A stretch of 64,000 nt of DNA. It comes from Candidatus Poribacteria bacterium (GTDB lineage: Bacteria > Poribacteria > WGA-4E > JAJDTR01). Below, one piece after another: positions 515 through 62,462 of the stretch. The position numbers and the translations under genes were made by a program. Every line of letters begins with the position of its first letter. Within the stretch, counting starts at the first letter, position 1. The stretch is taken from the NCBI GenBank assembly GCA_965220415.1, contig OZ244829.1, forward strand, positions 2,217,209 through 2,281,208, read 5' to 3'. Under the pieces are notes generated by a model. The model searched no databases. It was not told where the DNA came from and was given only the letters and a program-made list of their open reading frames with translations.

Positions 515-2038
515 CTACACTTCACTCTTTTGGAAAATCAGAAATATCGCCATGAACAGCGCTAGATTGGTCATCAGTAATAGGTATACATCAGGAAGTG
601 CTCGTTTTGCATTTGCTACGACATCGACTCTTTGAAAGGAAAACTGTGGCAGTGTGCGCCAATCTACTGGTTTTTTGTCTGCAGTAAACCATTGTCGAAC
701 TTCGAACGCTTTGTTATCAATGAAATAGTCAATCACCGTCTGTCGGTACTGCCGCGCGGCGTCGAAAAAATCTTGAACCCCCGGGAGATCTGTGCCAGCC
801 CATGCCTGTGTTGCCGCATCGTATAGCCCCGTTGGAGAAAGTTTCAGCAAGAGTCTATCCACGGTTGCCGGCTGAATAAAGCGGTCTTCCAGTGCTGGCT
901 TGCGGACGATCCATGTGCGCCCTGCTGTGTTGATGGTTCGTGGGCAGAGGAAGCGGAAATAATCCTGAACGTACGACACGTTTGGTTCGGATTCTTTTTC
1001 GAATGATTCCATGTACACTTTAATTTCGTAATAATACAGGAATGTTGACGCGTTTTCTTTAGAAATGACCTCGTCTTCTCCTGTCGTCGTCCATTCTATA
1101 TTATTAAAGATTAAAGAATGGAGATCCTCCCCAGAAACTGGGTCATTGGCGAGAAAGTGTTTCCGTTCTCTATGAAATTCGTCCCACATCTGTTTCATTT
1201 GATTGAGTGCGGATTCCGCACGCGGTTTAAGGTGCTCTGAAGAATGAGTCATGGCAAGGATCATGTTGGGATACACCAATACCAAGAATCCCCAGACAAA
1301 CATGGAGATCATGAGCGCGGTACCGGTTCTTTGTGTTGCTGCCGAAATCAGTAGCCCGATGAGGTAGAACACGGAAAGATAAGCAAGTGATGAAATAACC
1401 AGTCCGCTAATGCGCAGAAAATCGGGGGTACCGAGCGAGAAGGAGGTAGTGGTTGTTAGCAGAATCAATGAGAGCAGTAAACTAAGCATTAGTGGTATGA
1501 GCAGGCAGAGCATTGCGCCGATGTACTTTGCAAGAAGGATATGTCCGCGATTGAGGGGATGTGTCAATACTAGACGCAACGTACCACGCTCGCGTTCCCC
1601 TGCCAGTGCGTCATAGGCAAATATGAGCGCCATCAAGCTGAGCACTACCTCGAAGATGAAGACGATGTCAATCGAGTTGAAGATGTTGAGAAACGGATTG
1701 TCCGAGCCACTCATCTCGGCATCCCAGAGTGTTGGCACAAAGGCGTAGGATACCTCAACTTGGTTTCCCAGCCGTTTGTCCAATCCAACGTTGAAAATGC
1801 TCAGTGGGTTGGGCGGTCTGTCAACAACGATCTCGCCGGCGGAATAGGTTTTGGTCTCTCGTAATTGATACCGGTGCATTTTGACCGCGGTGTTATAGCT
1901 TGCCAATCGCCGCTCGTAATCCTTGATGAGGACAGCGGTATTGGCGACCACGAGCAACAACATAATGAACATTGCCGCAGCGAAGCGGAATGTCATCAGA
2001 TTGTCAAGGAGTTCTCGACGTATGAGTGTAATTAGCAT
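515..2038 (-). CDS. ABC-2 type transporter permease with large extracytoplasmic loop (GldF/NosY-like family)
   Basis: 542-aa ORF. The likely true start is the internal Met (MLITLIRRELLDNL...) at 2038, preceded by a GGGGG RBS. It has an N-terminal TM helix, a long hydrophilic loop and a C-terminal cluster of about 5 TM helices, as in ABC-2 permeases. Confidence 0.6.
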   Translation of the reverse strand: MLITLIRRELLDNLMTFRFAAAMFIMLLLVVANTAVLIKDYERRLASYNTAVKMHRYQLRETKTYSAGEIVVDRPPNPLSIFNVGLDKRLGNQVEVSYAFVPTLWDAEMSGSDNPFLNIFNSIDIVFIFEVVLSLMALIFAYDALAGERERGTLRLVLTHPLNRGHILLAKYIGAMLCLLIPLMLSLLLSLILLTTTTSFSLGTPDFLRISGLVISSLAYLSVFYLIGLLISAATQRTGTALMISMFVWGFLVLVYPNMILAMTHSSEHLKPRAESALNQMKQMWDEFHRERKHFLANDPVSGEDLHSLIFNNIEWTTTGEDEVISKENASTFLYYYEIKVYMESFEKESEPNVSYVQDYFRFLCPRTINTAGRTWIVRKPALEDRFIQPATVDRLLLKLSPTGLYDAATQAWAGTDLPGVQDFFDAARQYRQTVIDYFIDNKAFEVRQWFTADKKPVDWRTLPQFSFQRVDVVANAKRALPDVYLLLMTNLALFMAIFLIFQKSEV

Positions 2039-2269
2039 TGAGTTACCCCCGCGCACCAACGCCCTAAAACCATACGAGCATTGCGGGCATTGGTTCGACA
2101 TATATGATAAATGTATGATAACATAATCACATGACTGAGTCACCTAAACCCGGAATAACTAACGCCTGTCAACCTTTGGTCTTGCACACCGCCTAGGGTT
2201 TCTGTTGACATCTCAGCGGAGTCAAGCTTCGGTGTCAGAGAGTCCTATGCGAATAAAATCTCTCACCAG

Positions 2270-2440
2270 ATACTTGGTGCGTTGGTTAAGGTGCTTTCGA
2301 TGAAAAATCGCGAGCATTCATTGGGGATAAATCTGCAAACCATCGTATTTGATGCGAACGAGCAACCCATTGAACGTTCAACAAAAGGACAGCGTGTCTA
2401 CTACAGCGGTAAAAAACGGCACACCAGAAGAGTGTAATTG
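2270..2440 (+). pseudogene. Relic of a DDE transposase (IS5/IS4-like); internal fragment only
   Basis: Plus-frame translation ...TIVFDANEQPIERSTKGQRVYYSGKKRHTRRV* resembles the first catalytic-D region (xxDxTExPIxRP) and the YSGKKKRHT motif of IS5-family DDE transposases. It is flanked by stops with no start and lies in a 1-kb non-coding gap. Confidence 0.4.
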
Positions 2441-3214
2441 ATTACATATTCTTATCTTCCGCATTATCGATCGCCTAAAAGTTAAATTTCTCAATTGGCC
2501 GTATCCCGCATCATAATTGAAAGCATGCCATTATCCCTGACGGAAGAATTCTTTCAGCAAGCAACACTTACTAGTCAGAGTCCCTTTCCTCGATCCAGAG
2601 GATCGAAATGTCAATAGAACGCGACATGTCCAGAGTCCCGCGCTCCAGAGGAGCGCCATGTGGTGTGTTACTTCGTAAAAATGAAGTTGATGATGAAAGG
2701 GCAAAACAGGTCAATCAATCGGACTCAGGGTAGTACCTTGGTGATTTTTTCTCGTTTGTAAATATATACCCCAAGGTCTGCTATGTGACAATTCGAGATT
2801 ACACAAGTCTATTATGCGGAAGATGAGATATTTGGCGCCTTTAGCAATATTGTCGTTTATCTGCCGTAAAGGTAGCGCTAATGATTACAGTAATTTAGAG
2901 GAAAACCATCTGGCAAGGGAACTCTTCGAGACTTCGAAATTGGCCGACAGGAGTCATCAAGGCATAGCCAAACTGTTTGCCAACAGTTCGCCGCCCATCA
3001 AGAGATGCCGGGGCCAGCCATTGACTCAGGACGCGGAGCAATTCAACCAACAGTTGACGCCACACAGGGCTGCCATTGAAGGTGCAAAGTTTTTTTGGAT
3101 CGCCAATGACGGCTATTAAAGCAAGCAACATGATTATTATAATTGCCAAGATTTCTGTACCTACACAGGTCTATATCGGAAAATTATCTAATTCCGTACC
3201 AAGGAGGATACCCA

Positions 3215-3946
3215 ATGTTAGAAACTAGAGACCTAACCAAAGTCTATGACAACACAATTCGAGCTGTCAACGAATTGAACTTGAAGATCGAACGGGGAGA
3301 AATCTACGTCATACTCGGTGCGAATGGTGCTGGGAAAAGCACCACCATCTCCATGCTCCTGAATTTCATTGACCCAACCAGTGGCACGGCGTTAGTCAAT
3401 GATATTGAGATTCCAAAGTTTCCACTCGAAGCGAAGAAGCATCTCGCTTACGTATCGGAAAACGTGGAGTTGTATCGAAACTTTACCGCACGACAGAACC
3501 TTGAGTTTTTCACCAAGCTGGGAGGCAAAAAGAAAGTGACTCGCGATGAACTGGATGCGACACTTGCTCGTGTCGGGTTGCCGGAAGAATCATTTAAACG
3601 TCGGGTGAAAACCTTTTCCAAAGGGATGCGACAGCGATTGGGAATCGCGGTAGCCATCATGAAGGGCGCCGATGCGATACTGCTTGATGAACCCACCTCT
3701 GGACTAGACCCAAAGGGTGGGGCGGACTTCCTGAACCTTTTGCGCGAACTGAGGAGTGAAGGCAAAGCCATCTTCATGTCTACCCACGACATATTTCGTG
3801 CCAAGGAAATCGCTGATCGGCTTGGGATTCTTGTGAGTGGAAATCTGGTTCGCGAGCTATCCCGTCAAGAGATTGAAACCGAAGATCTGGAAGCCCTATA
3901 CCTGCGTTATGTGGCGGGGTACGAATCGGAAGAGGAAGTAGCATAA
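3215..3946 (+). CDS. ABC transporter ATP-binding protein (ABC-2 type, no fused permease)
   Basis: Walker A GANGAGKST, signature/Q-loop region, Walker B ILLDEPTSGLD and an H-loop are present. AGGAGG RBS lies 8 nt before the ATG at 3215 (the ORF track start at 3143 is an upstream extension). Confidence 0.85.
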   Translation: MLETRDLTKVYDNTIRAVNELNLKIERGEIYVILGANGAGKSTTISMLLNFIDPTSGTALVNDIEIPKFPLEAKKHLAYVSENVELYRNFTARQNLEFFTKLGGKKKVTRDELDATLARVGLPEESFKRRVKTFSKGMRQRLGIAVAIMKGADAILLDEPTSGLDPKGGADFLNLLRELRSEGKAIFMSTHDIFRAKEIADRLGILVSGNLVRELSRQEIETEDLEALYLRYVAGYESEEEVA

Positions 3947-8028: not shown

Positions 8029-8200
8029 GATGTAGGTTGGGTTGAGCAGTCGACAGCCAAGTTTTATTCAGCTTGCAAGCACAGATAATCTTTTCGATGA
8101 CCCGTTGGGGTAAACAGATATAGCGAAACCCAACTATTGGAAGAAAAAATCGCTTCTGCATGTGATTTCTCTCGGTTTTCCGTTCAACCCAACCTACGCA
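8029..8200. repeat. MITE-like element, family 2 (19-bp TIR GATGTAGGTTGGGTTGAGC ... CGTTCAACCCAACCTACGCA)
   Basis: Terminal inverted repeats at 8029-8047 and 8181-8200. An internal GCGAAACCCAAC motif is shared with copies at 42889-43000 and 62188-62462. Confidence 0.55.
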
Positions 8201-8370
8201 CTGCTATCATAAATCGTAGATGGAGCTACAGGTATAACTCCTTGTAGGAGCAATCTCCCGACTGCGTTTCGTCTCGTCTTTCATTGTCACTCCCGGGCTA
8301 TATCGAAGCTGATGATGCTCCCACCGCCGTGAATTACATGCGATTGCCCTGTACCTCCCGATATTTTGAG

Positions 8371-9910: not shown

Positions 9911-10176
9911 TTATACTCGACGCTGCTGAGAATTGCTTATTTTGTAGGAGCGATCTCCGAATCGCGACCTATTTAAATCTTGGTAGCCCCAGAGGAGATC
10001 AAGCGAATGAATAATGAGCGAACAGCGAAGGCGATAGAGATCCCATAGGAATCCCACAGATGGAAACTGCGGACGTTACCCTATTCAATATTCGTTCGCT
10101 TGGTACTGTCTCTACAATCGGCGAAGCAAGCCTTAAATCTTGAAAAGCGCAATTTCTGACAGCGCACAGTATAAAA
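9911..10176. repeat. MITE/REP-like element, family 1 copy A (modules 1+2) with ~26-bp imperfect TIRs
   Basis: Left end TTATACTCGACGCTGCTGAGAATTGC; right end GCGCAATTTCTGACAGCGCACAGTATAAAA is its imperfect reverse complement. Contains GTAG-led TGTAGGAGCGATCTCC and a GATCAAGCGA...GCGATAGAGATCCC module. Confidence 0.6.
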
Positions 10177-37897: not shown

Positions 37898-40800
37898 CTA
37901 TCCACTGCCTGCGTCACGCAATCGTTCGATCCGCCTGCGTACCTCGTCCGCAATATTTCGGTAGTTTTCCCGCTTATTCGCTTTCGTCGCAGATTCTTCG
38001 GGGAAGCCGGGAGCGACCGGCTCCCCGAAAACGACACGAATTCTGCTTTTGCGCGGCAACGACTTGCCTTTGGGCAATGCTTCATAGGTGCCACTTACAT
38101 ACGCGGGCACGATAGGCACATTAGCTTCGTATGCAAGCAAACCGAGACCAGGCTTGAAAGGCTGGAGTTCCCCGTTCAGTGAGCGGGTACCTTCCGGATA
38201 GATGAGCAAGTTTTCGTCTCGAAGAAGCGCTTCCTGTGCAACGCGTAGGCTTTGGAGGGAATTATCCGTTCGATCGAACGGCAAGGCGTTGAGACACTGG
38301 CTAACAAACCACGCTTTCATTCGACTGTTGTAGAAGTAGTCTCTTGCACTAAGCGGACGTAATTTTCTTGATTCTACGCCTAGAGCGGTCATAATCGCCG
38401 GTGTATCGAGGTGGCTGCTGTGATTCGCCGCGATGATGTACGGTACTTCGGATGGGATGTGCTCTAATCCCCCGCACCGAAGCGAGAAGCGGCGCCGGAA
38501 AATCGTCCGAATGCCGAAGCGAATAAGTTTAGCCAAATGGCTCGGAGGCGAGTCGAGTTTCCCATGCTCCGCGGCGATCGAGGAACCAAGGGACGTATCC
38601 TCGGCATCCGGCGTGGCTTGCTGTGAGTCTAACGTGTTGACAACATCAATTACATCTCCGACAGTACGAATCCTTGCAGCGACCTCGTCCGGCACCTGTT
38701 TACCCAGTTTCGATTCAAGCAGCAACAGCAGTTCAACACGGGTCATCGAATCCAATCCGAGATCCGTGTCCAACGCGCTGTCCGCACGGATGCGATCCGG
38801 CGGAACGCGTGACAATCGCGTGAGTTCGCCGACAACCTCAGCTGCCCGGCTGCCCGGTTCCCACTCTCCAACAGCCACATCTGCCGAGGTTTCTTCGGCG
38901 GAAACAACGGGATGAGCCGCGTCTACCACTATCTGCTTGAACAGCAACGTCTTGACACGCGGACGGTCAATCTCGCCGTCAGGCGTTTTGGGCAAGTCCT
39001 CCTCCCAGAAATGTACCTTTTGGAGATTCTGATGCGTGGGGAGACTGCGTGCGCATGTTTGGAGATGTTTCTGAATCGATTCTTGGACTTCCTCCCGAGC
39101 GTCGCGCTCCGAGCAATTCGGCACAATTACTGTGTGTACTTCCTCTCCGAACGAGTCCGGCGTATCTAGTCCGACGACGCAAATCTCGGAAATATGGGGA
39201 CTATGTCGATACAGTTCCTCAAGTTCGACCGGATAGATATTTTTGCCGGTGCTGGCAATAATGACATCTTTTTTGCGCCCCGTAATAAAGAGGTAACCGT
39301 CATCATCAATATAACCGAGATCGCCGGTATAGAGCAAACCATCTCGAAGGACTTGTTGGGTCGCCGCCGGATTCCGATAGTATCCGGCCATGGTGCTCGG
39401 ACTCTTCGTGACAATTTCGCCAATTCCGCTGGCGTCCGGATTTTCAATCTGGAACTCCACCTCATTTACCGGCAGTCCGACGGAACCGGCTTTGCTCTTC
39501 TCCGCAGGATTCACGCTTAACACGGGCGCCGTTTCCGTCATGCCGTAACCTTCAAGGATTGTGAAACCAAAACGCTTGAATCCGTCGTAAACCTGACGAG
39601 GCAAGGCGGCACCGCCGCTTATAAGGACGCGGATCTGTCCTCCTAATGCCTTCTTAACGTGTTCAATCACGGCTGAATCATCCGACTCGTCCGTTTCAAT
39701 CGGGGTTTTCAGCACATACCTCTCAATGGCGTCATAGAGCAATTTGTACAAGCGCGGAACCCCGATAATGGCGGTCGTTTCCGTTTCTCGCATGGATTCC
39801 AAGATCGCGGTTGGTTTGAATGTATTGATATAGGTGACAGTGGCGCCACCGTAGATAGCCATCAGAAAACTGCAGGAGAACCCTAGGGCATGATACAGCG
39901 GAAGAATTGCTAGGACACGATCTGTTTCGGCTGGGGGAAGTACCTGCGCGACAGCGTGGAGATTTGCCAGAAACCCCTTGTGAGACAACATCGCGCCCCT
40001 CGGATCTACGGTGGTACCCATTGTGAAAATGATCGAGGCGGTTGCCTCTGGCTGGATTTCTACGATTGGAAAATCGGCAGGAATTTCATCAGTGGAAGAC
40101 ACAACTCCCTCGGCGCCCGAAGGTGCGCAGAGCTGATTCAGATTCAATACGTCCAGCTTTTCCCTTTCGTCGGAGATAGAGTGCAGTTGTTTAAAAAGGG
40201 ACTCAGACGCGATAACCACTTTTGCCTCCGTAAAGTCGGCAAGCGCCATCACTTCGAATCTAGCGGTCTGCGGATCGATAGGCACTACAATGGCACCGAT
40301 CTGGATGGCGGCTAGGTAGGTGATTCCCCACTCGGGTTGATTCTCGGAAATGAGAATCACCTTATCGTCTTTGCGATAGCCACGTTTCCAAAACGCAAAC
40401 GCGATCTGTCGCGATACATCATAAACTTGACGGTAGGAATACCGTACCCACTCCCCGCCTCGTTCAATCTGCAAGGCTGTATTATCCGAGTGCGCCTCGG
40501 CTTGTCGCTCAACGAGATCCAAAATCGTCTGACAGTCCTGTATTGAGCCCTTTTCCTGCGGGCAAGCATCGTGGCGTACCGCATTTGAACGCTCAACTTC
40601 TATGAGCGTTTTCACCGACGGATCGGCATCCATTTTAAGAATGAACCGCTTGATTCCCGGAATATGGATATTCTGGAGATAGTGTTGCCAGTCGAATTGG
40701 GAGATATTGAGGTCGAAGCGGCGCTGATCGACTGAGGTCAGCGATGCGAACAGTTGTCCAATCTTGGAGGTTTCAAACTCGAAGTTGAGGCGCGTATACG

Positions 40801-42226
40801 GACCATAGATGCGAATGTAGTATTGAAGCCCCTCTAGTGCATTTTGTATCACGGCGATACGACGGTTCCGCTGTCTCGACCATCTCAGTGGAACAAGATT
40901 CAGCAGCCGACTTGCTGCTTTGAGCACACTCAACTTTCGCGATAACTTGTGCTGAAATTCCTCAAGACCGGGGTACCGCCATACGGGTGGAGGAATGGGC
41001 TTTCCACCATCTAGCATTGGATATTTGATAAAGTGGTCGTGAGAGGCGTCCACTATGTTTCGGAAATACAGTGGGTTTTGGGAGCCAGTCGCCACATGGT
41101 AGACCTCAATTCCGCGCCTCTGATAGGTCTGCTTCGCCGCGATTAAAATGGCGTTCACTACAAAGTCCACGGGGACAATATCAAGGATAATATCCGGATC
41201 CGCAGGAAAATCGGGCAGGCGCCCTTTTCCAAAACCAACGATAAGCGGATCCGCCATTCGTAACCCATCGAGCCAACCCGGTCGTGGGTCTTCTAGGCTA
41301 CTTTCAATAATCGAAGGGCGAATGATTGCTACCGGCAAATCACCCCGCGTCTTGGCGACCATCTGTTCGCCCAGCGCTTTCATGTAGGTGTACGTGTCAT
41401 TCCAGCCTCGTGACTGTGCTCGTTTCAGCCCTTCATCGACCAAGCGCTGCTCAATCCATTTCTTGCGAATGGTATCATACTGACCACGATAACCGTCGCT
41501 GTCTTCCCGTTCTTCTCCGACCTGTTCCAAAGCCTCTCGTCGGAATTGGTCGCTTCGAGGGGATTCATCCGCCTCGGCTCTTATCTTTTCCGCAATTTGT
41601 TGGACATCTTCAATTTCTTCCTCAAGCGAGTGAGGGATTCTCTCTCCGGTCTCTTCGGCAATCTTTTGGGCACAAACTTCGTACGGTGGGTGTAATTCCT
41701 CGCTGATTCTCCCCGGCTTCGTTCCGCACACGTAGGCGGTCGAAACGTGAAGAAGTACGGCGTCATTGCATCCTCGAACGAATTCGACGGCCTGTTTTGC
41801 ACCAAGTACATTGCTATGCAATGACATATCCATCGGCGGATCGAAGTTAACCAACCCTCCGCTATTTATGAAGATTTGGACTTCGTCCTGTAGTTCTTTG
41901 TAACGGGCATCAGGCATCCCGAGTCGTTCGTAGGTCAAGTCGCCATCTACGCCATGCACCTTCTCGCGAATCCAGCTATCGAACCGGTCTCCATGAAAAT
42001 GTTTAAGTTTTGCAAAAACGCTTGACGTGAAGAACTCGTCCTCTAGCCGATCAGCGGCAGAATTCACTTTGCCGTTGGGATTGGTTCGACTGCGAACGAG
42101 TAGGTAGATCCGCTTTACACCCGGCAGATCCGTGAGAATTTTGGCGACCACCGGCTTGCCCAAGAAGCCCGTAGCACCCGTAATCAGCACAGTTTTGTTT
42201 TGAAAAAACTCGGATATGGTGTTCAA
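37898..42226 (-). CDS. Four-domain lipid-biosynthesis megaenzyme: fatty acyl reductase (FAR) - fatty acyl-AMP ligase - acyl carrier domain - 1-acyl-glycerol-3-phosphate acyltransferase (PlsC); ElbD-like
   Basis: N-terminal Rossmann TGATGFLG + YxxxK (FAR/male-sterility type) with a FAR_C region; AMP-binding motifs TMGTTVDPRG, GYGMTETA, YTGDLGY.DDDGYLFITGRKKD; phosphopantetheine attachment LGLDSMTRVEL; acyltransferase motifs NHSSHLD (HX4D) and YPEGTRS. Confidence 0.85.
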   Translation of the reverse strand: MNTISEFFQNKTVLITGATGFLGKPVVAKILTDLPGVKRIYLLVRSRTNPNGKVNSAADRLEDEFFTSSVFAKLKHFHGDRFDSWIREKVHGVDGDLTYERLGMPDARYKELQDEVQIFINSGGLVNFDPPMDMSLHSNVLGAKQAVEFVRGCNDAVLLHVSTAYVCGTKPGRISEELHPPYEVCAQKIAEETGERIPHSLEEEIEDVQQIAEKIRAEADESPRSDQFRREALEQVGEEREDSDGYRGQYDTIRKKWIEQRLVDEGLKRAQSRGWNDTYTYMKALGEQMVAKTRGDLPVAIIRPSIIESSLEDPRPGWLDGLRMADPLIVGFGKGRLPDFPADPDIILDIVPVDFVVNAILIAAKQTYQRRGIEVYHVATGSQNPLYFRNIVDASHDHFIKYPMLDGGKPIPPPVWRYPGLEEFQHKLSRKLSVLKAASRLLNLVPLRWSRQRNRRIAVIQNALEGLQYYIRIYGPYTRLNFEFETSKIGQLFASLTSVDQRRFDLNISQFDWQHYLQNIHIPGIKRFILKMDADPSVKTLIEVERSNAVRHDACPQEKGSIQDCQTILDLVERQAEAHSDNTALQIERGGEWVRYSYRQVYDVSRQIAFAFWKRGYRKDDKVILISENQPEWGITYLAAIQIGAIVVPIDPQTARFEVMALADFTEAKVVIASESLFKQLHSISDEREKLDVLNLNQLCAPSGAEGVVSSTDEIPADFPIVEIQPEATASIIFTMGTTVDPRGAMLSHKGFLANLHAVAQVLPPAETDRVLAILPLYHALGFSCSFLMAIYGGATVTYINTFKPTAILESMRETETTAIIGVPRLYKLLYDAIERYVLKTPIETDESDDSAVIEHVKKALGGQIRVLISGGAALPRQVYDGFKRFGFTILEGYGMTETAPVLSVNPAEKSKAGSVGLPVNEVEFQIENPDASGIGEIVTKSPSTMAGYYRNPAATQQVLRDGLLYTGDLGYIDDDGYLFITGRKKDVIIASTGKNIYPVELEELYRHSPHISEICVVGLDTPDSFGEEVHTVIVPNCSERDAREEVQESIQKHLQTCARSLPTHQNLQKVHFWEEDLPKTPDGEIDRPRVKTLLFKQIVVDAAHPVVSAEETSADVAVGEWEPGSRAAEVVGELTRLSRVPPDRIRADSALDTDLGLDSMTRVELLLLLESKLGKQVPDEVAARIRTVGDVIDVVNTLDSQQATPDAEDTSLGSSIAAEHGKLDSPPSHLAKLIRFGIRTIFRRRFSLRCGGLEHIPSEVPYIIAANHSSHLDTPAIMTALGVESRKLRPLSARDYFYNSRMKAWFVSQCLNALPFDRTDNSLQSLRVAQEALLRDENLLIYPEGTRSLNGELQPFKPGLGLLAYEANVPIVPAYVSGTYEALPKGKSLPRKSRIRVVFGEPVAPGFPEESATKANKRENYRNIADEVRRRIERLRDAGSG

Positions 42227-42637
42227 CTTAATTTCCGCCTTTATAACACATCATAGGGCCAAGTAATGCGGTAATCGCCCAGAACGGATTCCATAGTCAA
42301 CTCAACTTTGTCCGATGCCCCATATCTTCCCGAAATCTTGGGCCGTCGCCGAGGATTGCTCTTCGATCGGCATTGATTGCGAACAAGCTCGGAACAGTGA
42401 AAATTTGACAGCGTGTTAGTATAAGGGAATCGCGCGTTTGGTGTCAATGCAAAACCAAATCGTTTTCAGGGCGAGTGCGTCTGATTGTAGGATTAAGTGA
42501 GTGACTAGCGGTCAAGCGAGCGAATAGCGATCGTGATAAGGGGCCCAGGACCAAAATGCTCTCCATTCAGACGTACGTTCCCTACAACGTTTGAGGTCTA
42601 CGGAGCAAAGACCGTCTCATTCAGGTAGGTGGGATAG

Positions 42638-43048
42638 CAGGGGAAACGCATCTATACTCCACGCTGCTGAGAATTGCTTATTTTGTAGGAGCGATCTCCG
42701 AATCGCGACCTCTTTAAATCTTTGGTAGCCCCAGAGGGATCAAACGAGTGGATAACGAGGGCGATAGTAAATCCCGTGCGATAGAGATTTTACAGGTGTA
42801 CAACAATTCACGGCAGAAACATGAAAAACTACTCCTCATATGACAAAAAATGGGATTGGCACCTATTATTCAATCAGGCTCTAAGGATCGTAGGTTGGGT
42901 TGAACGAAATTCGTTAATGATCGTTAATCTTAGAGACGTTTCCGAGTCCCCACTTTGCATGAACATACCGAAAATATGAGTGAAACCCAACATTAATCGT
43001 AAATTCTACCGCCATGAGACATCCTCTAAATTAGATGCGTTTCCCCTG
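42638..43048. mobile_element. Composite non-autonomous element with perfect 16-bp TIRs (CAGGGGAAACGCATCT / AGATGCGTTTCCCCTG) and 10-bp target-site duplication GGTGGGATAG
   Basis: Direct repeat GGTGGGATAG at 42628-42637 and 43049-43058 immediately flanks the inverted repeats at 42638-42653 and 43033-43048. The interior carries a family-1 MITE copy (42654-42790) and a truncated family-2 copy (42889-43000). Confidence 0.6.
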
Positions 43049-43185
43049 GGTGGGATAGTCCTTGAGATTACCTCGGCAGTACGATATAATTGAATCGCTT
43101 GGGCATTAGGCTCAGAGTATTCCACCGTGTGAATGACACTCAAAGATAGGGATTGAATTTCGAAATCGGGAAAACGAATCCGAAA

Positions 43186-43713
43186 ATGTCAGAGTTTCCA
43201 CTCCGAAATCTAGAATTCAAGGCGGCAGCCGAGTCGCTCGAGTCCCTACGCGCGAACCTTAATGCACTTGAAGCGGAATGTTCGGGTAGGCTGTATCAGG
43301 TCGATACCTATTTTCATGTCCCAAAAGGGAGATTGAAACTGCGTGAAGTCGAAGATTACGCGGCGACACTAGTCTACTATGAGCGTCCGGACGCAGCAGA
43401 ATCGCGGTACAGCCACTACCAACTATGTGATATTGCGGACTGCGCGAAGTTTAAACAGATGATGTCTGACGCTCTTGGCGTGAAGGTAATCGTCAAGAAG
43501 AACCGTGAGTTATGGATTTACGGAAACACACGGATTCATCTAGATGAGGTTCTCGACCTCGGCGAGTTCGTTGAACTGGAAACCGTGATGCGAAATCAGA
43601 GCGAAACAGAGGCGCAAGCGGAACACAATCGTCTCAAGGCAACACTTCACATTGCGGCTGCCGACTTGATTCCGGTTTCCTATAGCGATCTGCTGTTAAA
43701 AAGCAACTCGTAA
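43186..43713 (+). CDS. CYTH-domain protein (class IV adenylyl cyclase/CyaB-like triphosphate tunnel metalloenzyme)
   Basis: N-terminal E-x-E-x-K (NLEFKAA), then YQVDTYF, GRLKLRE, YYER and the C-terminal NTRIHLDEV.DLGEFVELE motifs characteristic of CyaB/CYTH. ATG at 43186. Confidence 0.7.
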   Translation: MSEFPLRNLEFKAAAESLESLRANLNALEAECSGRLYQVDTYFHVPKGRLKLREVEDYAATLVYYERPDAAESRYSHYQLCDIADCAKFKQMMSDALGVKVIVKKNRELWIYGNTRIHLDEVLDLGEFVELETVMRNQSETEAQAEHNRLKATLHIAAADLIPVSYSDLLLKSNS

Positions 43714-51786: not shown

Positions 51787-51960
51787 AAGTTATATACTCC
51801 GCGCTGCTGAGAATTGCTTATTTTGTAGGAGCGATCTCCAGGTCGCGACTCTTGTACGAGGGAACTCCGATTCCCGACCTGATGGTACTACGTAAGTCCT
51901 ATTAGAAACAACTATCACTGGAAAAGAAAGCGCAATAATACCCAACGCAAGGTATATATC
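51787..51960. repeat. MITE/REP-like element, family 1 copy C (modules 1+3)
   Basis: TATACTCCGCGCTGCTGAGAATTGCTTATTTTGTAGGAGCGATCTCCAGGTCGCGAC...CCCAACGCAAGGTATAT; the ends are imperfect inverted repeats (TATACTCCGCG / CGCAAGGTATA). Confidence 0.6.
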
Positions 51961-61905: not shown

Positions 61906-62217
61906 ATGCAATCTTCTACGAAGGAATGGATAATTCAAACTATAGCACAACTACCTGAACCGGAGGCAAAACAGTTAAAAGACTACATCGAATTTCTTAC
62001 ATGGAAATCAATGCAAAAACGCAAGCCGGAAAACGGACAGAACCTAATAGCACAGAGCCTTATCAAAGCAATGGAAAATCCGCCACATCTCACCTATGAA
62101 GACGTTGAAGCGCTGCGTCGGTCCATTGAGGAAGGGAAGATGCCCGTAGATTTCGCTTCGCCCTTTGAGCCGGATGAACGTGAGAAGTGCGTAGGTTGGG
62201 TTGAACGGAAACCTTAA
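61906..62217 (+). CDS. Small hypothetical protein, DUF2281-like (LPEPEAKQLKDYIEFLTWK); 3' end reads into a MITE terminal repeat
   Basis: ATG lies 8 nt after AAGGAGG. The last 9 codons (EKCVGWVERKP*) are encoded by the left TIR GCGTAGGTTGGGTTGAACGG of the family-2 MITE. Confidence 0.4.
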   Translation: MQSSTKEWIIQTIAQLPEPEAKQLKDYIEFLTWKSMQKRKPENGQNLIAQSLIKAMENPPHLTYEDVEALRRSIEEGKMPVDFASPFEPDEREKCVGWVERKP

Positions 62218-62462
62218 TCAAATGCGGCGGGAAACTAGAAACCCTAGACTCACATGTTGTTTAATTCGCTAATACGCGAGTGAAACCCAACTTATTGTAA
62301 CATGCGCGTCGGATTGGTTGAAGCGTTGGGTTTCACTTTCTCCACCATAAGACAATGTTAATGTAAGGTGGATTCTATCCTAGTGTTCATGTGGATTCGT
62401 GTATGAGGGGACCTCTATCGCGGCCACTGTCCGTTCTCTTGATCGTTCAACCCAACTTACGC
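62188..62462. repeat. MITE-like element, family 2 (19-bp TIR GCGTAGGTTGGGTTGAACG / CGTTCAACCCAACTTACGC)
   Basis: TIRs at 62188-62206 and 62444-62462 with one mismatch; an internal 12-bp hairpin GTGAAACCCAAC...GTTGGGTTTCAC. Confidence 0.55.

What the first reader, a model, noticed from the sequence alone, without database searches (positions are those of the whole stretch)
42628..43058. Transposon-like insertion footprint: 411-bp element with perfect 16-bp terminal inverted repeats and a 10-bp target-site duplication, carrying nested MITEs
Directly visible: GGTGGGATAG|CAGGGGAAACGCATCT......AGATGCGTTTCCCCTG|GGTGGGATAG. The perfect TIRs and exact 10-bp direct duplication are a classical signature of a recent DDE-transposase-mediated insertion. 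The interior has no ORF; it holds a family-1 GTAG-led MITE copy and a truncated family-2 (GTAGGTTGGGTTGA) copy, so it is a composite of at least three non-autonomous elements. It lies between the lipid megaenzyme gene and the CYTH gene. The master element that supplies the transposase is not in this window.
Basis: seen in the sequence. Interest (0 to 1): 0.6.

Follow-up and report, generated by a model that had tools for sequence, protein, structure and literature searches.

The report
ISAs1-type MITE with a secondary insert
This is a real but ordinary miniature transposon, a transposase-less derivative of an ISAs1-family insertion sequence common in sponge-symbiont Poribacteria, sitting just upstream of an adenylate cyclase gene; this copy later gained 225 bp of other repeat DNA.

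Summary
There are perfect terminal inverted repeats (17 nt, not 16) at 42638-42654 and 43032-43048, flanked by an exact 10-bp duplication, GGTGGGATAG.

The terminus CAGGGGAAACGCATCTA defines a ~236-bp MITE family in Candidatus Poribacteria genomes. I recovered 26 canonical copies, 14 with perfect 10-bp duplications of unrelated sequence. Full-length elements with the same ends (for example L043 and L100) encode an intact 381-aa ISAs1-family DDE transposase. ISAs1 hallmarks are CAGGG-initiated repeats and a 10-bp duplication. No transposase lies in the window.

Orthologous loci settle the history:
- Four assemblies at about 87% identity (three aligned base-by-base, L105 more loosely), and one contig 97% identical on the right flank, have an empty site with a single target copy.
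- Four same-species assemblies (~97.5% identity) carry the canonical 236-bp element at exactly this site.
- Only the window has 411 bp.

So a 236-bp element inserted, and later 50 bp next to its left repeat were replaced by 225 bp. That block includes a ~135-bp "GTAG" repeat unit also present at window 9912-10045.

The "family-2" motif is not a nested insertion. It is the constant core of every copy of this MITE family.

Verdict: a new member of a known kind, of low to moderate interest.

The parts
42628..42637 (.). Left copy of the 10-bp target-site duplication, GGTGGGATAG
   Evidence: A single copy of this decamer sits at the empty site of L112.
42638..42654 (+). Left terminal inverted repeat, CAGGGGAAACGCATCTA (ISAs1-type, starts CAGGG)
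   Evidence: The same 17-mer ends 26 canonical MITEs and the full-length ISs L043, L100, L005, L021 and L082.
42655..42879 (+). Non-canonical 225-bp block that replaces positions 18-67 (50 bp) of the canonical MITE. It is absent from all four same-species orthologous copies.
   Evidence: blastn homology to L103, L110, L111 and L114 stops at 42654 and resumes at 42880. The profile of canonical copies matches only 42881-43048 and the repeats.
42653..42788 (+). Nested ~135-bp 'family-1' repeat unit. Module A runs TATACTCC...GTAGGAGCGATCTCCGAATCGCGACC (GTAG hairpin at 42685-42710). Module B runs GATCAAACGAGTGGATAACGAG...GCGATAGAGAT (42738-42788).
   Evidence: It is 92-96% identical to window 9912-10018, with homology extending to about 10045. 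Module A is also at 51793 and 33325. Module B has many copies in the window and in Poribacteria loci.
42789..42879 (+). About 90 bp of unassigned sequence inside the block. It may be a scrambled remnant of the canonical left interior.
   Evidence: There was no significant match to canonical left parts, to the 9912 copy, or to the loci. A 22-mer probe (ACAACAATTCACGGCAGAAACA, 42803-42824) from this segment had no exact match in JGI metagenomes.
42880..43031 (+). Canonical MITE interior (profile positions 68-219), including the constant GTAG-tagged core: GTAGGTTGGGTTGAAC at 42890-42905 and GAGTGAAACCCAAC at 42978-42991
   Evidence: nhmmer gives E 2e-51 against the profile of 26 canonical copies. 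The segment is about 97-98% identical to the orthologous copies.
43032..43048 (-). Right terminal inverted repeat, TAGATGCGTTTCCCCTG
43049..43058 (.). Right copy of the 10-bp target-site duplication, GGTGGGATAG
43062..43090 (+). Promoter-like site TTGAGA-17-TATAAT, probably the promoter of the CYTH/class IV adenylate cyclase gene. Its -35 hexamer starts 4 bp (three intervening bases) after the duplication.
   Evidence: 11 of 12 consensus matches. The sequence is conserved in all orthologous loci, with or without the element. Function is inferred.
43186..43713 (+). Right-hand neighbour: CYTH-domain class IV adenylate cyclase (CyaB-like), 175 aa
   Evidence: Pfam PF01928; sources name homologues 'class IV adenylate cyclase', Candidatus Poribacteria
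37898..42226 (-). Left-hand neighbour: 1442-aa multidomain enzyme (NAD_binding_4/Sterile, AMP-binding, PP-binding, acyltransferase), transcribed divergently
   Evidence: Pfam families come from the orthologues. A promoter-like site lies on the minus strand at 42447-42418.

Best explanation
The feature is a non-autonomous miniature inverted-repeat transposable element (MITE). It is mobilised in trans by an ISAs1-family DDE transposase that recognises the 17-nt ends CAGGGGAAACGCATCTA.

Shown:
- A canonical ~236-bp copy integrated into the divergent promoter region between the 1442-aa lipid-enzyme gene and the class IV adenylate cyclase gene.
- The integration duplicated the 10-bp target GGTGGGATAG.
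- It happened in an ancestor of a Candidatus Poribacteria population that is now about 97.5% identical.
- Later, and only in the lineage of this window, the 50 bp next to the left repeat were replaced by 225 bp. This block holds a ~135-bp GTAG-led dispersed repeat unit plus ~90 bp of unassigned sequence. Both repeats and both target copies were left intact.

Inferred:
- The duplication arose from staggered cuts 10 bp apart that were then filled in.
- The replacement arose through repeat insertion plus deletion, or through recombination.
- The copy could still be recognised by the transposase.
- Sitting 4 bp upstream of the -35 hexamer, the insertion changes the upstream context of the cyclase promoter.
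For: - TIR and TSD are present.
- The 17-mer was found in more than 102 genome stretches, mostly Candidatus Poribacteria and Nostocales.
- 26 canonical 234-237-bp copies were recovered. 14 have perfect 10-bp TSDs of unrelated sequence and 4 more have 1-2 mismatches.
- Full-length elements share the same ends. L100 is 1252 bp. L043 has a 10-bp TSD. Both encode an intact 381-aa protein.
- That protein matches Pfam DDE_Tnp_1_assoc + DDE_Tnp_1 and NCBIfam NF033564 'ISAs1 family transposase' at E 1.9e-123 over the whole model.
- At least 7985 homologues score E <= 1e-60, and nearly all of the 120 listed are full-length (376-399 aa).
- The literature gives the ISAs1 hallmarks as a 14-22-bp IR starting CAGGG and a 10-bp DR (PMC11946415).
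- Empty sites with one target copy and contiguous flanks: L104, L108 and L109 and L112, which has the exact decamer.
- The canonical element is at the same site in L103, L110, L111 and L114, with flanks and right half 97-98% identical.
- No transposase lies in the window.
Against: - Only one copy lies in the 64-kb window. The rest of this genome could not be searched, so neither the copy number nor the presence of an intact transposase in this particular genome is known. No homologue was tied to the 6.15-Mb contig that carries the identical cyclase protein.
- The composite form is seen only in this one assembly and could not be checked against reads.
- L112 is a 2x-coverage contig whose left flank is only 88% identical, so it may be a recombinant or a chimera.
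- How ISAs1-family enzymes transpose has not been worked out, so cut-and-paste versus copy-out cannot be stated.
Confidence: 0.88

Rival explanations
1. The 411-bp composite is itself the mobile unit. It transposed into this site as one piece.
For: Both repeats and both target copies are perfect, which is what a fresh insertion would look like.
Against: - Four same-species assemblies carry the 236-bp canonical element at the identical site, with the same target and a 97-98% identical right half. The site was therefore already occupied by the canonical form.
- The junction of TIR and module A was not found in 109 loci or in JGI metagenome contigs.
Confidence: 0.05
2. The extra 225 bp is an assembly artefact: repeat-induced mis-joining or consensus error. 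The true sequence would then be the canonical 236-bp element.
For: Only this assembly shows the block. Its first 135 bp are 92-96% identical to another repeat copy 33 kb away in the same window.
Against: - The block has ~90 bp of sequence unmatched in the window or fetched loci, and a 22-mer probe from it had no exact hit in JGI metagenomes.
- Its borders are clean and leave the 17-nt repeat intact.
- A mis-join would not also remove exactly 50 bp of canonical interior.
- The window probably comes from a 6.15-Mb chromosome-scale contig.
Confidence: 0.07
3. The inverted and direct repeats are ancestral or chance sequence rather than the product of transposition.
For: None beyond the small size of the feature.
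Against: The chance expectation is about 4e-9. Precise empty sites exist in relatives. There are dozens of copies with different 10-bp duplications. The ends match an IS that encodes a transposase.
Confidence: 0.01
4. The element is a full-length ISAs1-family IS that decayed in place by internal deletion.
For: The ends are identical to those of full-length ISs. The left end of canonical MITE copies (not this copy, where the block begins after position 17) matches the IS right end for 23 nt.
Against: Beyond about 23 nt the interior is unrelated to the IS. The same 236-bp interior recurs at 26 unrelated sites. The short form is therefore what moves.
Confidence: 0.01

Closest known systems
ISAs1-family insertion sequences (for example ISAs1 of Aeromonas salmonicida, or ISAsp2 of Anabaena sp. 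90, PMC3542288)
   Same: The terminal inverted repeats start CAGGG and fall within the 14-22-nt range. The target duplication is 10 bp. The partner elements L043 and L100 encode a single NF033564 ISAs1-family DDE transposase and are about 1.25 kb long.
   Different: The window element has no transposase. Apart from about 17-23 terminal nucleotides it shares no sequence with the IS. It is a derivative or parasite of the family, not a member IS.
Bacterial MITEs whose ends match a resident IS ('type I' MITEs, as defined in PMC3542288)
   Same: It is small and non-coding, with TIRs and a fixed-length TSD. It occurs in many copies, shows insertion polymorphism, and its ends are identical to those of an autonomous IS.
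   Different: The interior is not an internally deleted IS. It is built around a GTAG-tagged repeat unit. This copy has also been remodelled internally.
197-bp MITE of Nostocales (Anabaena, Dolichospermum, Trichormus, Sphaerospermopsis) found here
   Same: It has the same 17-nt terminus (0-2 mismatches) and 10-bp TSDs. Its partner transposases are also ISAs1-family (L082, L048).
   Different: The interior is unrelated. The transposases are only 47-50% identical to the Poribacteria one. It lies in a different phylum.
GTAG-tagged REPs / REPINs (Di Nocera et al. 2013, PMC3733652; Bertels & Rainey 2011, PMC3116915)
   Same: The nested family-1 unit and the MITE core both carry a GTAG followed by short stem-forming sequence. 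Standalone family-2 elements form inverted pairs (8032-8197, 62191-62460). Nostocales loci hold compact hairpins with the same GTAG-GTTGGGTT/AACCCAAC stem.
   Different: The stems are short and not thermodynamically distinctive. In Poribacteria the family-2 'loop' is about 75 nt. No RAYT gene was found in the window or the fetched loci. Membership is a lead, not a result.
Mosaic non-autonomous elements such as Tn3-derived TIMEs (PMC4133298)
   Same: A miniature element bounded by IS or transposon ends carries unrelated passenger DNA.
   Different: The transposase family differs. Here the mosaic copy shows no sign of having moved as a unit.

Membership tests
MITE (IS-derived, non-autonomous) | Small size and no coding capacity | tested here: met
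   The element is 411 bp (canonical form 236 bp). The longest internal ORF is 52 aa. tblastn found no transposase similarity.
MITE (IS-derived, non-autonomous) | Terminal inverted repeats | tested here: met
   The repeats are 17 nt and 100% complementary.
MITE (IS-derived, non-autonomous) | Target-site duplication of fixed length, differing in sequence between copies | tested here: met
   The duplication here is an exact 10 bp. Of 26 canonical copies, 14 have perfect 10-bp TSDs, all of different sequence.
MITE (IS-derived, non-autonomous) | Multiple dispersed copies | tested here: met
Only one copy is in this 64-kb window. This genome as a whole was not searchable.
MITE (IS-derived, non-autonomous) | Ends shared with an autonomous element that encodes the transposase | tested here: met
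   L043, L100, L005 and L021 (Poribacteria) and L082 (Calothrix) carry the same ends at 0-2 mismatches.
MITE (IS-derived, non-autonomous) | Presence/absence polymorphism with a precise empty site | tested here: met
   L112 reads ...CATTCAGGTAGGTGGGATAGTCCTTGAG... with one target copy. L104, L108 and L109 are also empty.
MITE (IS-derived, non-autonomous) | Mobilisation in trans by the partner transposase | not testable with these tools
   This needs a transposition assay.
ISAs1 family (partner IS, and origin of the ends) | ISAs1-type DDE transposase | tested here: met
   For L043 688-1833(-): NF033564 at E 1.9e-123, matching 1-314 of 314 model positions, and Pfam PF13808 + PF01609. The protein is not encoded in the window.
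ISAs1 family (partner IS, and origin of the ends) | 14-22-bp terminal IR beginning CAGGG | tested here: met
   The end is CAGGGGAAACGCATCTA, 17 nt. The criterion is taken from PMC11946415.
ISAs1 family (partner IS, and origin of the ends) | 10-bp (8-10 bp) direct repeat at the target | tested here: met
   The duplication is 10 bp here, in the MITE copies, and in the full-length L043. The 10-bp figure is from PMC11946415; the 8-10-bp range is recalled from the ISfinder family table.
ISAs1 family (partner IS, and origin of the ends) | About 1.2-1.5 kb with a single ORF | tested here: met
   L100 is 1252 bp with one 381-aa ORF. The size range is recalled from the ISfinder family table, not from a tool.
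GTAG-tagged REP / REPIN (for the nested family-1 unit and the family-2 core) | Unpaired GTAG tag next to a short palindromic stem-loop | tested here: inconclusive
   GTAG is present in both. Family 1A has a 5-bp stem, with a compensatory variant (GCGAT/ATCGC versus GGGAA/TTCCC). The folds are no better than shuffles, z -0.3 to -1.7.
GTAG-tagged REP / REPIN (for the nested family-1 unit and the family-2 core) | High-copy extragenic distribution, often as inverted pairs | tested here: met
   The window holds 9-10 copies each of modules 1A and 1B. Family-2 inverted pairs lie at 8032-8197 and 62191-62460.
GTAG-tagged REP / REPIN (for the nested family-1 unit and the family-2 core) | Cognate RAYT (Y1/HUH) transposase gene in the genome | tested here: inconclusive
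   tblastn with E. coli RayT found no hit in the window or in about 0.9 Mb of loci. RAYTs are usually single-copy and whole genomes were not searched.

The most novel reading that the evidence does not exclude
The Poribacteria MITE family may be a chimera of two mobility systems: ISAs1 ends wrapped around a GTAG-tagged REP unit. The REP stem (GTAG-GTTGGGTT/AACCCAAC) and the 17-nt ISAs1 terminus are both shared with Nostocales cyanobacteria. On this reading, the two phyla exchanged or co-inherited a linked IS plus REP/RAYT repertoire. The element could then be acted on by both a DDE and a HUH transposase. The 225-bp block in this copy would be a RAYT-type insertion of GTAG repeats next to the terminal repeat.
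Probability: 0.1. Interest if true: 0.5.

Novelty: new member of a known kind. Interest (0 to 1): 0.22.

Why it matters
The element itself is routine. It has three modest points of value.
- It names the transposase family (ISAs1) behind a repeat that is abundant in genomes of an uncultivated sponge-symbiont phylum. I found no description of MITEs there.
- One locus shows three alleles within one species-level population: empty, canonical and internally remodelled. These are ready-made strain markers, and a clear example of how a MITE gains passenger DNA after insertion.
- The insertion lies 4 bp upstream of the -35 hexamer of a class IV adenylate cyclase gene. The alleles may therefore differ in expression of a cAMP-forming enzyme, which can be tested with metatranscriptomes.

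For genome scans the lesson is that perfect ends and a perfect duplication do not show that the whole intervening sequence is what inserted.

Tried and rejected
- Exact look-up of the window's 175-aa cyclase found nothing on record. Homologues had to be used instead.
- A JGI metagenome scan for the TIR/module-A junction gave 0 hits. A scan for a 22-mer of the unassigned 90 bp also gave 0 hits. No second composite copy and no donor locus were therefore found.
- MAFFT suggested that 42832-42879 aligns to the canonical left interior. A local alignment against all 26 copies scored no better than shuffles (26 versus 22.6 +/- 3.5), and the profile search did not cover it. I therefore treat it as unassigned. 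By eye, GACAAAAAA and AATCAGGCT may be remnants.
- Homology of the nested unit to the 9912 copy beyond about 135 bp was not significant.
- Rfam gave no match in 42000-43400 at E <= 1.
- RNAalifold on the 26 canonical copies gave a covariation term of only -0.31, with one compensatory pair. There is no evidence for a selected RNA structure.
- Single-strand DNA folds of the GTAG units were unremarkable.
- tblastn with E. coli RayT gave no hit.
- A search for the transposase in the window's own genome, using contig lengths, was not conclusive.
- The weak TIR-like hit at 8335-8351 (3 mismatches) has no partner and was not supported by the profile search.

Full report
**Observation.**
The sequence reads ...CATTCAGGTA GGTGGGATAG | CAGGGGAAACGCATCTA ... 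TAGATGCGTTTCCCCTG | GGTGGGATAG TCCTTGAG....
- The repeat finder reports 17-nt arms at 42638-42654 and 43032-43048 that are 100% complementary. It also reports the exact 10-nt direct repeat at 42628-42637 and 43049-43058.
- The 17-mer has no other match with 2 or fewer mismatches in the window.
- A perfect 17-nt inverted pair within 1 kb is expected about 0.004 times in 64 kb. With an adjoining exact 10-nt duplication the expectation is about 4e-9.
- No ORF above 52 aa lies inside.

**What the ends belong to.**
Most are from Candidatus Poribacteria MAGs, often as two inverted hits about 220 bp apart. Many others are from Nostocales, often at contig ends.
- Pairing the hits gave a 234-237-bp element in Poribacteria and a 197-bp element in Nostocales, both with 10-bp duplications.
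- After orientation I had 26 canonical Poribacteria copies. 14 have perfect 10-bp duplications and 4 more have 1-2 mismatches. All the duplications differ in sequence, so there is no obvious target preference.
- Longer pairs turned out to be the autonomous partner. L100 4782-6033 is 1252 bp. L043 666-3644 carries a 10-bp duplication and has another IS nested inside it. Each encodes an intact 381-aa protein, and the two proteins are 99% identical. L005 and L021 are decayed copies. L082 (Calothrix) encodes a 376-aa relative.
- The protein matches Pfam DDE_Tnp_1_assoc + DDE_Tnp_1. It also matches the NCBIfam equivalog NF033564 'ISAs1 family transposase' at E 1.9e-123 across the whole model.
- The family is very large, and nearly all of the 120 best hits listed are full-length: at least 7985 proteins score E <= 1e-60.
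- A paper states that ISAs1 elements have 14-22-bp terminal repeats starting CAGGG and make a 10-bp direct repeat (PMC11946415). All of this matches.
- Beyond about 23 terminal nucleotides the MITE interior is unrelated to the IS.
- The window contains no ISAs1 transposase.

**Source and orthologous sites.**
The right-hand neighbour is a CYTH-domain class IV adenylate cyclase. Its close homologues are all from Candidatus Poribacteria. Synteny with the 1442-aa multidomain gene is conserved.
- Distant relatives are empty. L104, L105, L106/L107, L108 and L109 are about 85-87% identical in nucleotides and lack the element. L104, L108 and L109 show contiguous flanks around one diverged copy of the target, for example CTCATTCATGTGCGCTGGATAGTCCTTGAG.
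- One close relative is empty. L112 is 97% identical to the right of the site and reads GTCTCATTCAGGTAGGTGGGATAGTCCTTGAGATTACC. This is the exact decamer, once. L112 is a 2x contig whose left flank is only 88% identical, so it may be a recombinant.
- Four same-species assemblies carry the element. L103, L110, L111 and L114 come from different samples and are about 97.5% identical to the window. All carry the element at exactly this site, in the canonical 236-bp form.
- Their ends vary slightly. L111 has perfect repeats and a perfect left target copy. L103 and L110 share the variant left end GGTGGAATAC|CAGAGGAAACACATCTA, and L114 has GGTGGAATAC|CAGAGGAAACGCATCTA. Because several independent assemblies carry these variants, they are real polymorphism rather than sequencing error.
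This is the classical proof of insertion. It also dates the event: after the split from the ~87% lineages and before the divergence of the ~97.5% population.

**Anatomy of the window copy.**
- Against all four same-species copies, blastn homology ends at 42654, the last base of the left repeat. It resumes at 42880.
- A profile of the 26 canonical copies matches 42881-43048 to profile positions 68-236 (E 2e-51). Otherwise it matches only the two repeats.
- So 50 bp of canonical interior (positions 18-67) have been replaced by 225 bp (42655-42879).
- Deletion cannot create canonical sequence, so the 236-bp state is ancestral and the 411-bp state is derived.
- The first ~135 bp of the block (42653-42788, sharing the terminal TA of the repeat) are a dispersed repeat unit. 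It is 92-96% identical to window 9912-10018, with homology continuing to about 10045.
  - Module A (TATACTCC...GTAGGAGCGATCTCCGAATCGCGACC) also occurs at 51793 and 33325.
  - Module B (GATCAAGCGAGTGGATAACGAG...GCGATAGAGATCCC) has about 10 copies in the window and many in Poribacteria loci.
- The remaining ~90 bp match nothing I could find.
- The junction of repeat and module A occurs in none of 109 loci and in no JGI metagenome contig. Nothing therefore suggests that the composite moved as a unit.
- I could not determine how the block arrived. No duplication flanks it. There may be TA microhomology at the left junction.

**The 'family-2' motif.**
GTAGGTTGGGTTGAAC (42890-42905) and GAGTGAAACCCAAC (42978-42991) are nearly invariant in all 26 canonical copies, although the copies average only 88% identity.
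- The profile's core (positions 73-184) aligns at E 1.5e-7 to the standalone element at 62187-62295. That element has the same ~90-nt spacing between the two motifs.
- The MITE family was therefore built around one family-2 unit. At this locus the unit is not a separate nested insertion.

**Context.**
A promoter-like site, TTGAGA-17-TATAAT, lies at 43062-43090. It matches 11 of 12 consensus positions and is conserved in every orthologue with or without the element. Its -35 hexamer starts 4 bp (three intervening bases) after the right target copy. A second site on the other strand (42447-42418) faces the 1442-aa gene.
The element therefore sits between two divergent promoters and replaces everything upstream of about -48 of the cyclase promoter. 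Any effect on expression is inferred, not shown.

**Mechanism.**
Shown:
- ends identical to those of an IS encoding an ISAs1 DDE transposase;
- fixed 10-bp duplications;
- precise empty sites;
- many copies.
Inferred:
- the transposase binds the 17-nt ends in trans, makes cuts staggered by 10 bp in the target, and repair duplicates the target;
- both ends of this copy are intact, so it could still be mobilised if a transposase is present in this genome, which I could not establish.
From my own knowledge, the chemistry of ISAs1 transposition (cut-and-paste or copy-out) has not been characterised, so I do not commit on that step.

**Comparison and novelty.**
The element meets every sequence-testable criterion of an IS-derived MITE. 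Its partner meets those of the ISAs1 family (see the membership table). Literature searches returned no paper whose title or abstract concerns MITEs in Poribacteria or sponge symbionts.
It is a new member of a known kind. The extra value lies in the three-allele polymorphism and in the demonstration that the composite arose in place.

**Dead ends.**
These are listed under 'tried and rejected'. In brief, there was no Rfam match, no covariation in the MITE alignment, weak hairpins and no RAYT homologue.

Noticed in passing
window 8244, 9944, 19525, 33355, 42685, 51825, 51854, 58181 (module 1A); 9997, 18753, 18896, 42510, 42738, 52146, 58051, 58093, 59501 (module 1B): Two GTAG-led dispersed repeat modules show a strong strand bias. 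8 of 9 copies of 1A and 9 of 10 copies of 1B lie on the + strand. Module 1A has a 5-bp stem with a conserved CTCCGA loop. A variant (51854, 58181) changes both sides of the stem: GCGAT/ATCGC becomes GGGAA/TTCCC. This looks like GTAG-tagged REPs (PMC3733652), and the bias might reflect single-strand, replication-linked spread. Neither idea was tested.
   Followed up: partly
window 8032-8197 and 62191-62460: Standalone 'family-2' elements are bounded by inverted GTAGGTTGGGTTGAAC ends, with internal GAAACCCAAC motifs, which is a REPIN-like architecture. They lack the ISAs1 repeats and have no evident target duplication.
   Followed up: partly
L034 5023(-), L007 2785, L078 7167 and 7239, L054 6216, L075 4216 (Nostocales loci): Nostocales genomes carry compact hairpins such as CGTAGGTTGGGTTGAGCAAAGGGAAACCCAACA. 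Their GTAG tag and stem are the same as in the Poribacteria family-2 unit and MITE core. The two phyla therefore share both this repeat stem and the 17-nt ISAs1 terminus. In L075, a hit to the 17-nt terminus directly abuts and interrupts such a hairpin.
   Followed up: partly
L007 5963-6158, L022 292-488, L067 2729-2925, L080 6537-6733, L095 3041-3237: Nostocales hold a 197-bp MITE family with the same terminus and 10-bp duplications but an unrelated interior. The ISAs1 transposases of the two phyla are only 47-50% identical. The exact 17-mer also occurs beside a 40%-identical transposase in a Patescibacteria contig (L015). It also occurs in single contigs of several other phyla.
   Followed up: partly
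window 42467-42483; L106 ~5215, L107 ~5797: About 160 bp upstream of the MITE lies CAGGGCGAGTGCGTCTG, which resembles the IS left end CAGGGGAAACGCATCTG at 12 of 17 positions. At the orthologous position L106 and L107 have CAGAGGAAACACATCTG, with only 2 mismatches. This may be the relic of an older ISAs1-type end. L112's homology to the window also starts near here.
   Followed up: partly
L043 666-3644: A full-length ISAs1-family IS with a 10-bp duplication has a second, unrelated IS-like element nested in it. The nested element has two overlapping ORFs of 262 and 333 aa at 1860-3546. Its family was not determined.
   Followed up: no
L100 6017-6045: The right end of this IS is followed directly by a second copy of its last 10 nt (...GCGTTTCCCCTG GTTTCCCCTG GGAG). 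No matching duplication is present on the left. This is unexplained.
   Followed up: no
window 37898-42226 (-): A 1442-aa single-polypeptide enzyme combines a fatty-acyl reductase-like NAD_binding_4/Sterile region with AMP-binding, PP-binding and acyltransferase domains. It is conserved and syntenic across Poribacteria.
   Followed up: no
window 42821-42979 (+): A 52-aa ORF (MKNYSSYDKKWDWHLLFNQALRIVGWVERNS...) starts in the unassigned part of the block and reads through the GTAG core. A weak promoter-like site lies at 42840-42869. It is probably spurious.
   Followed up: no
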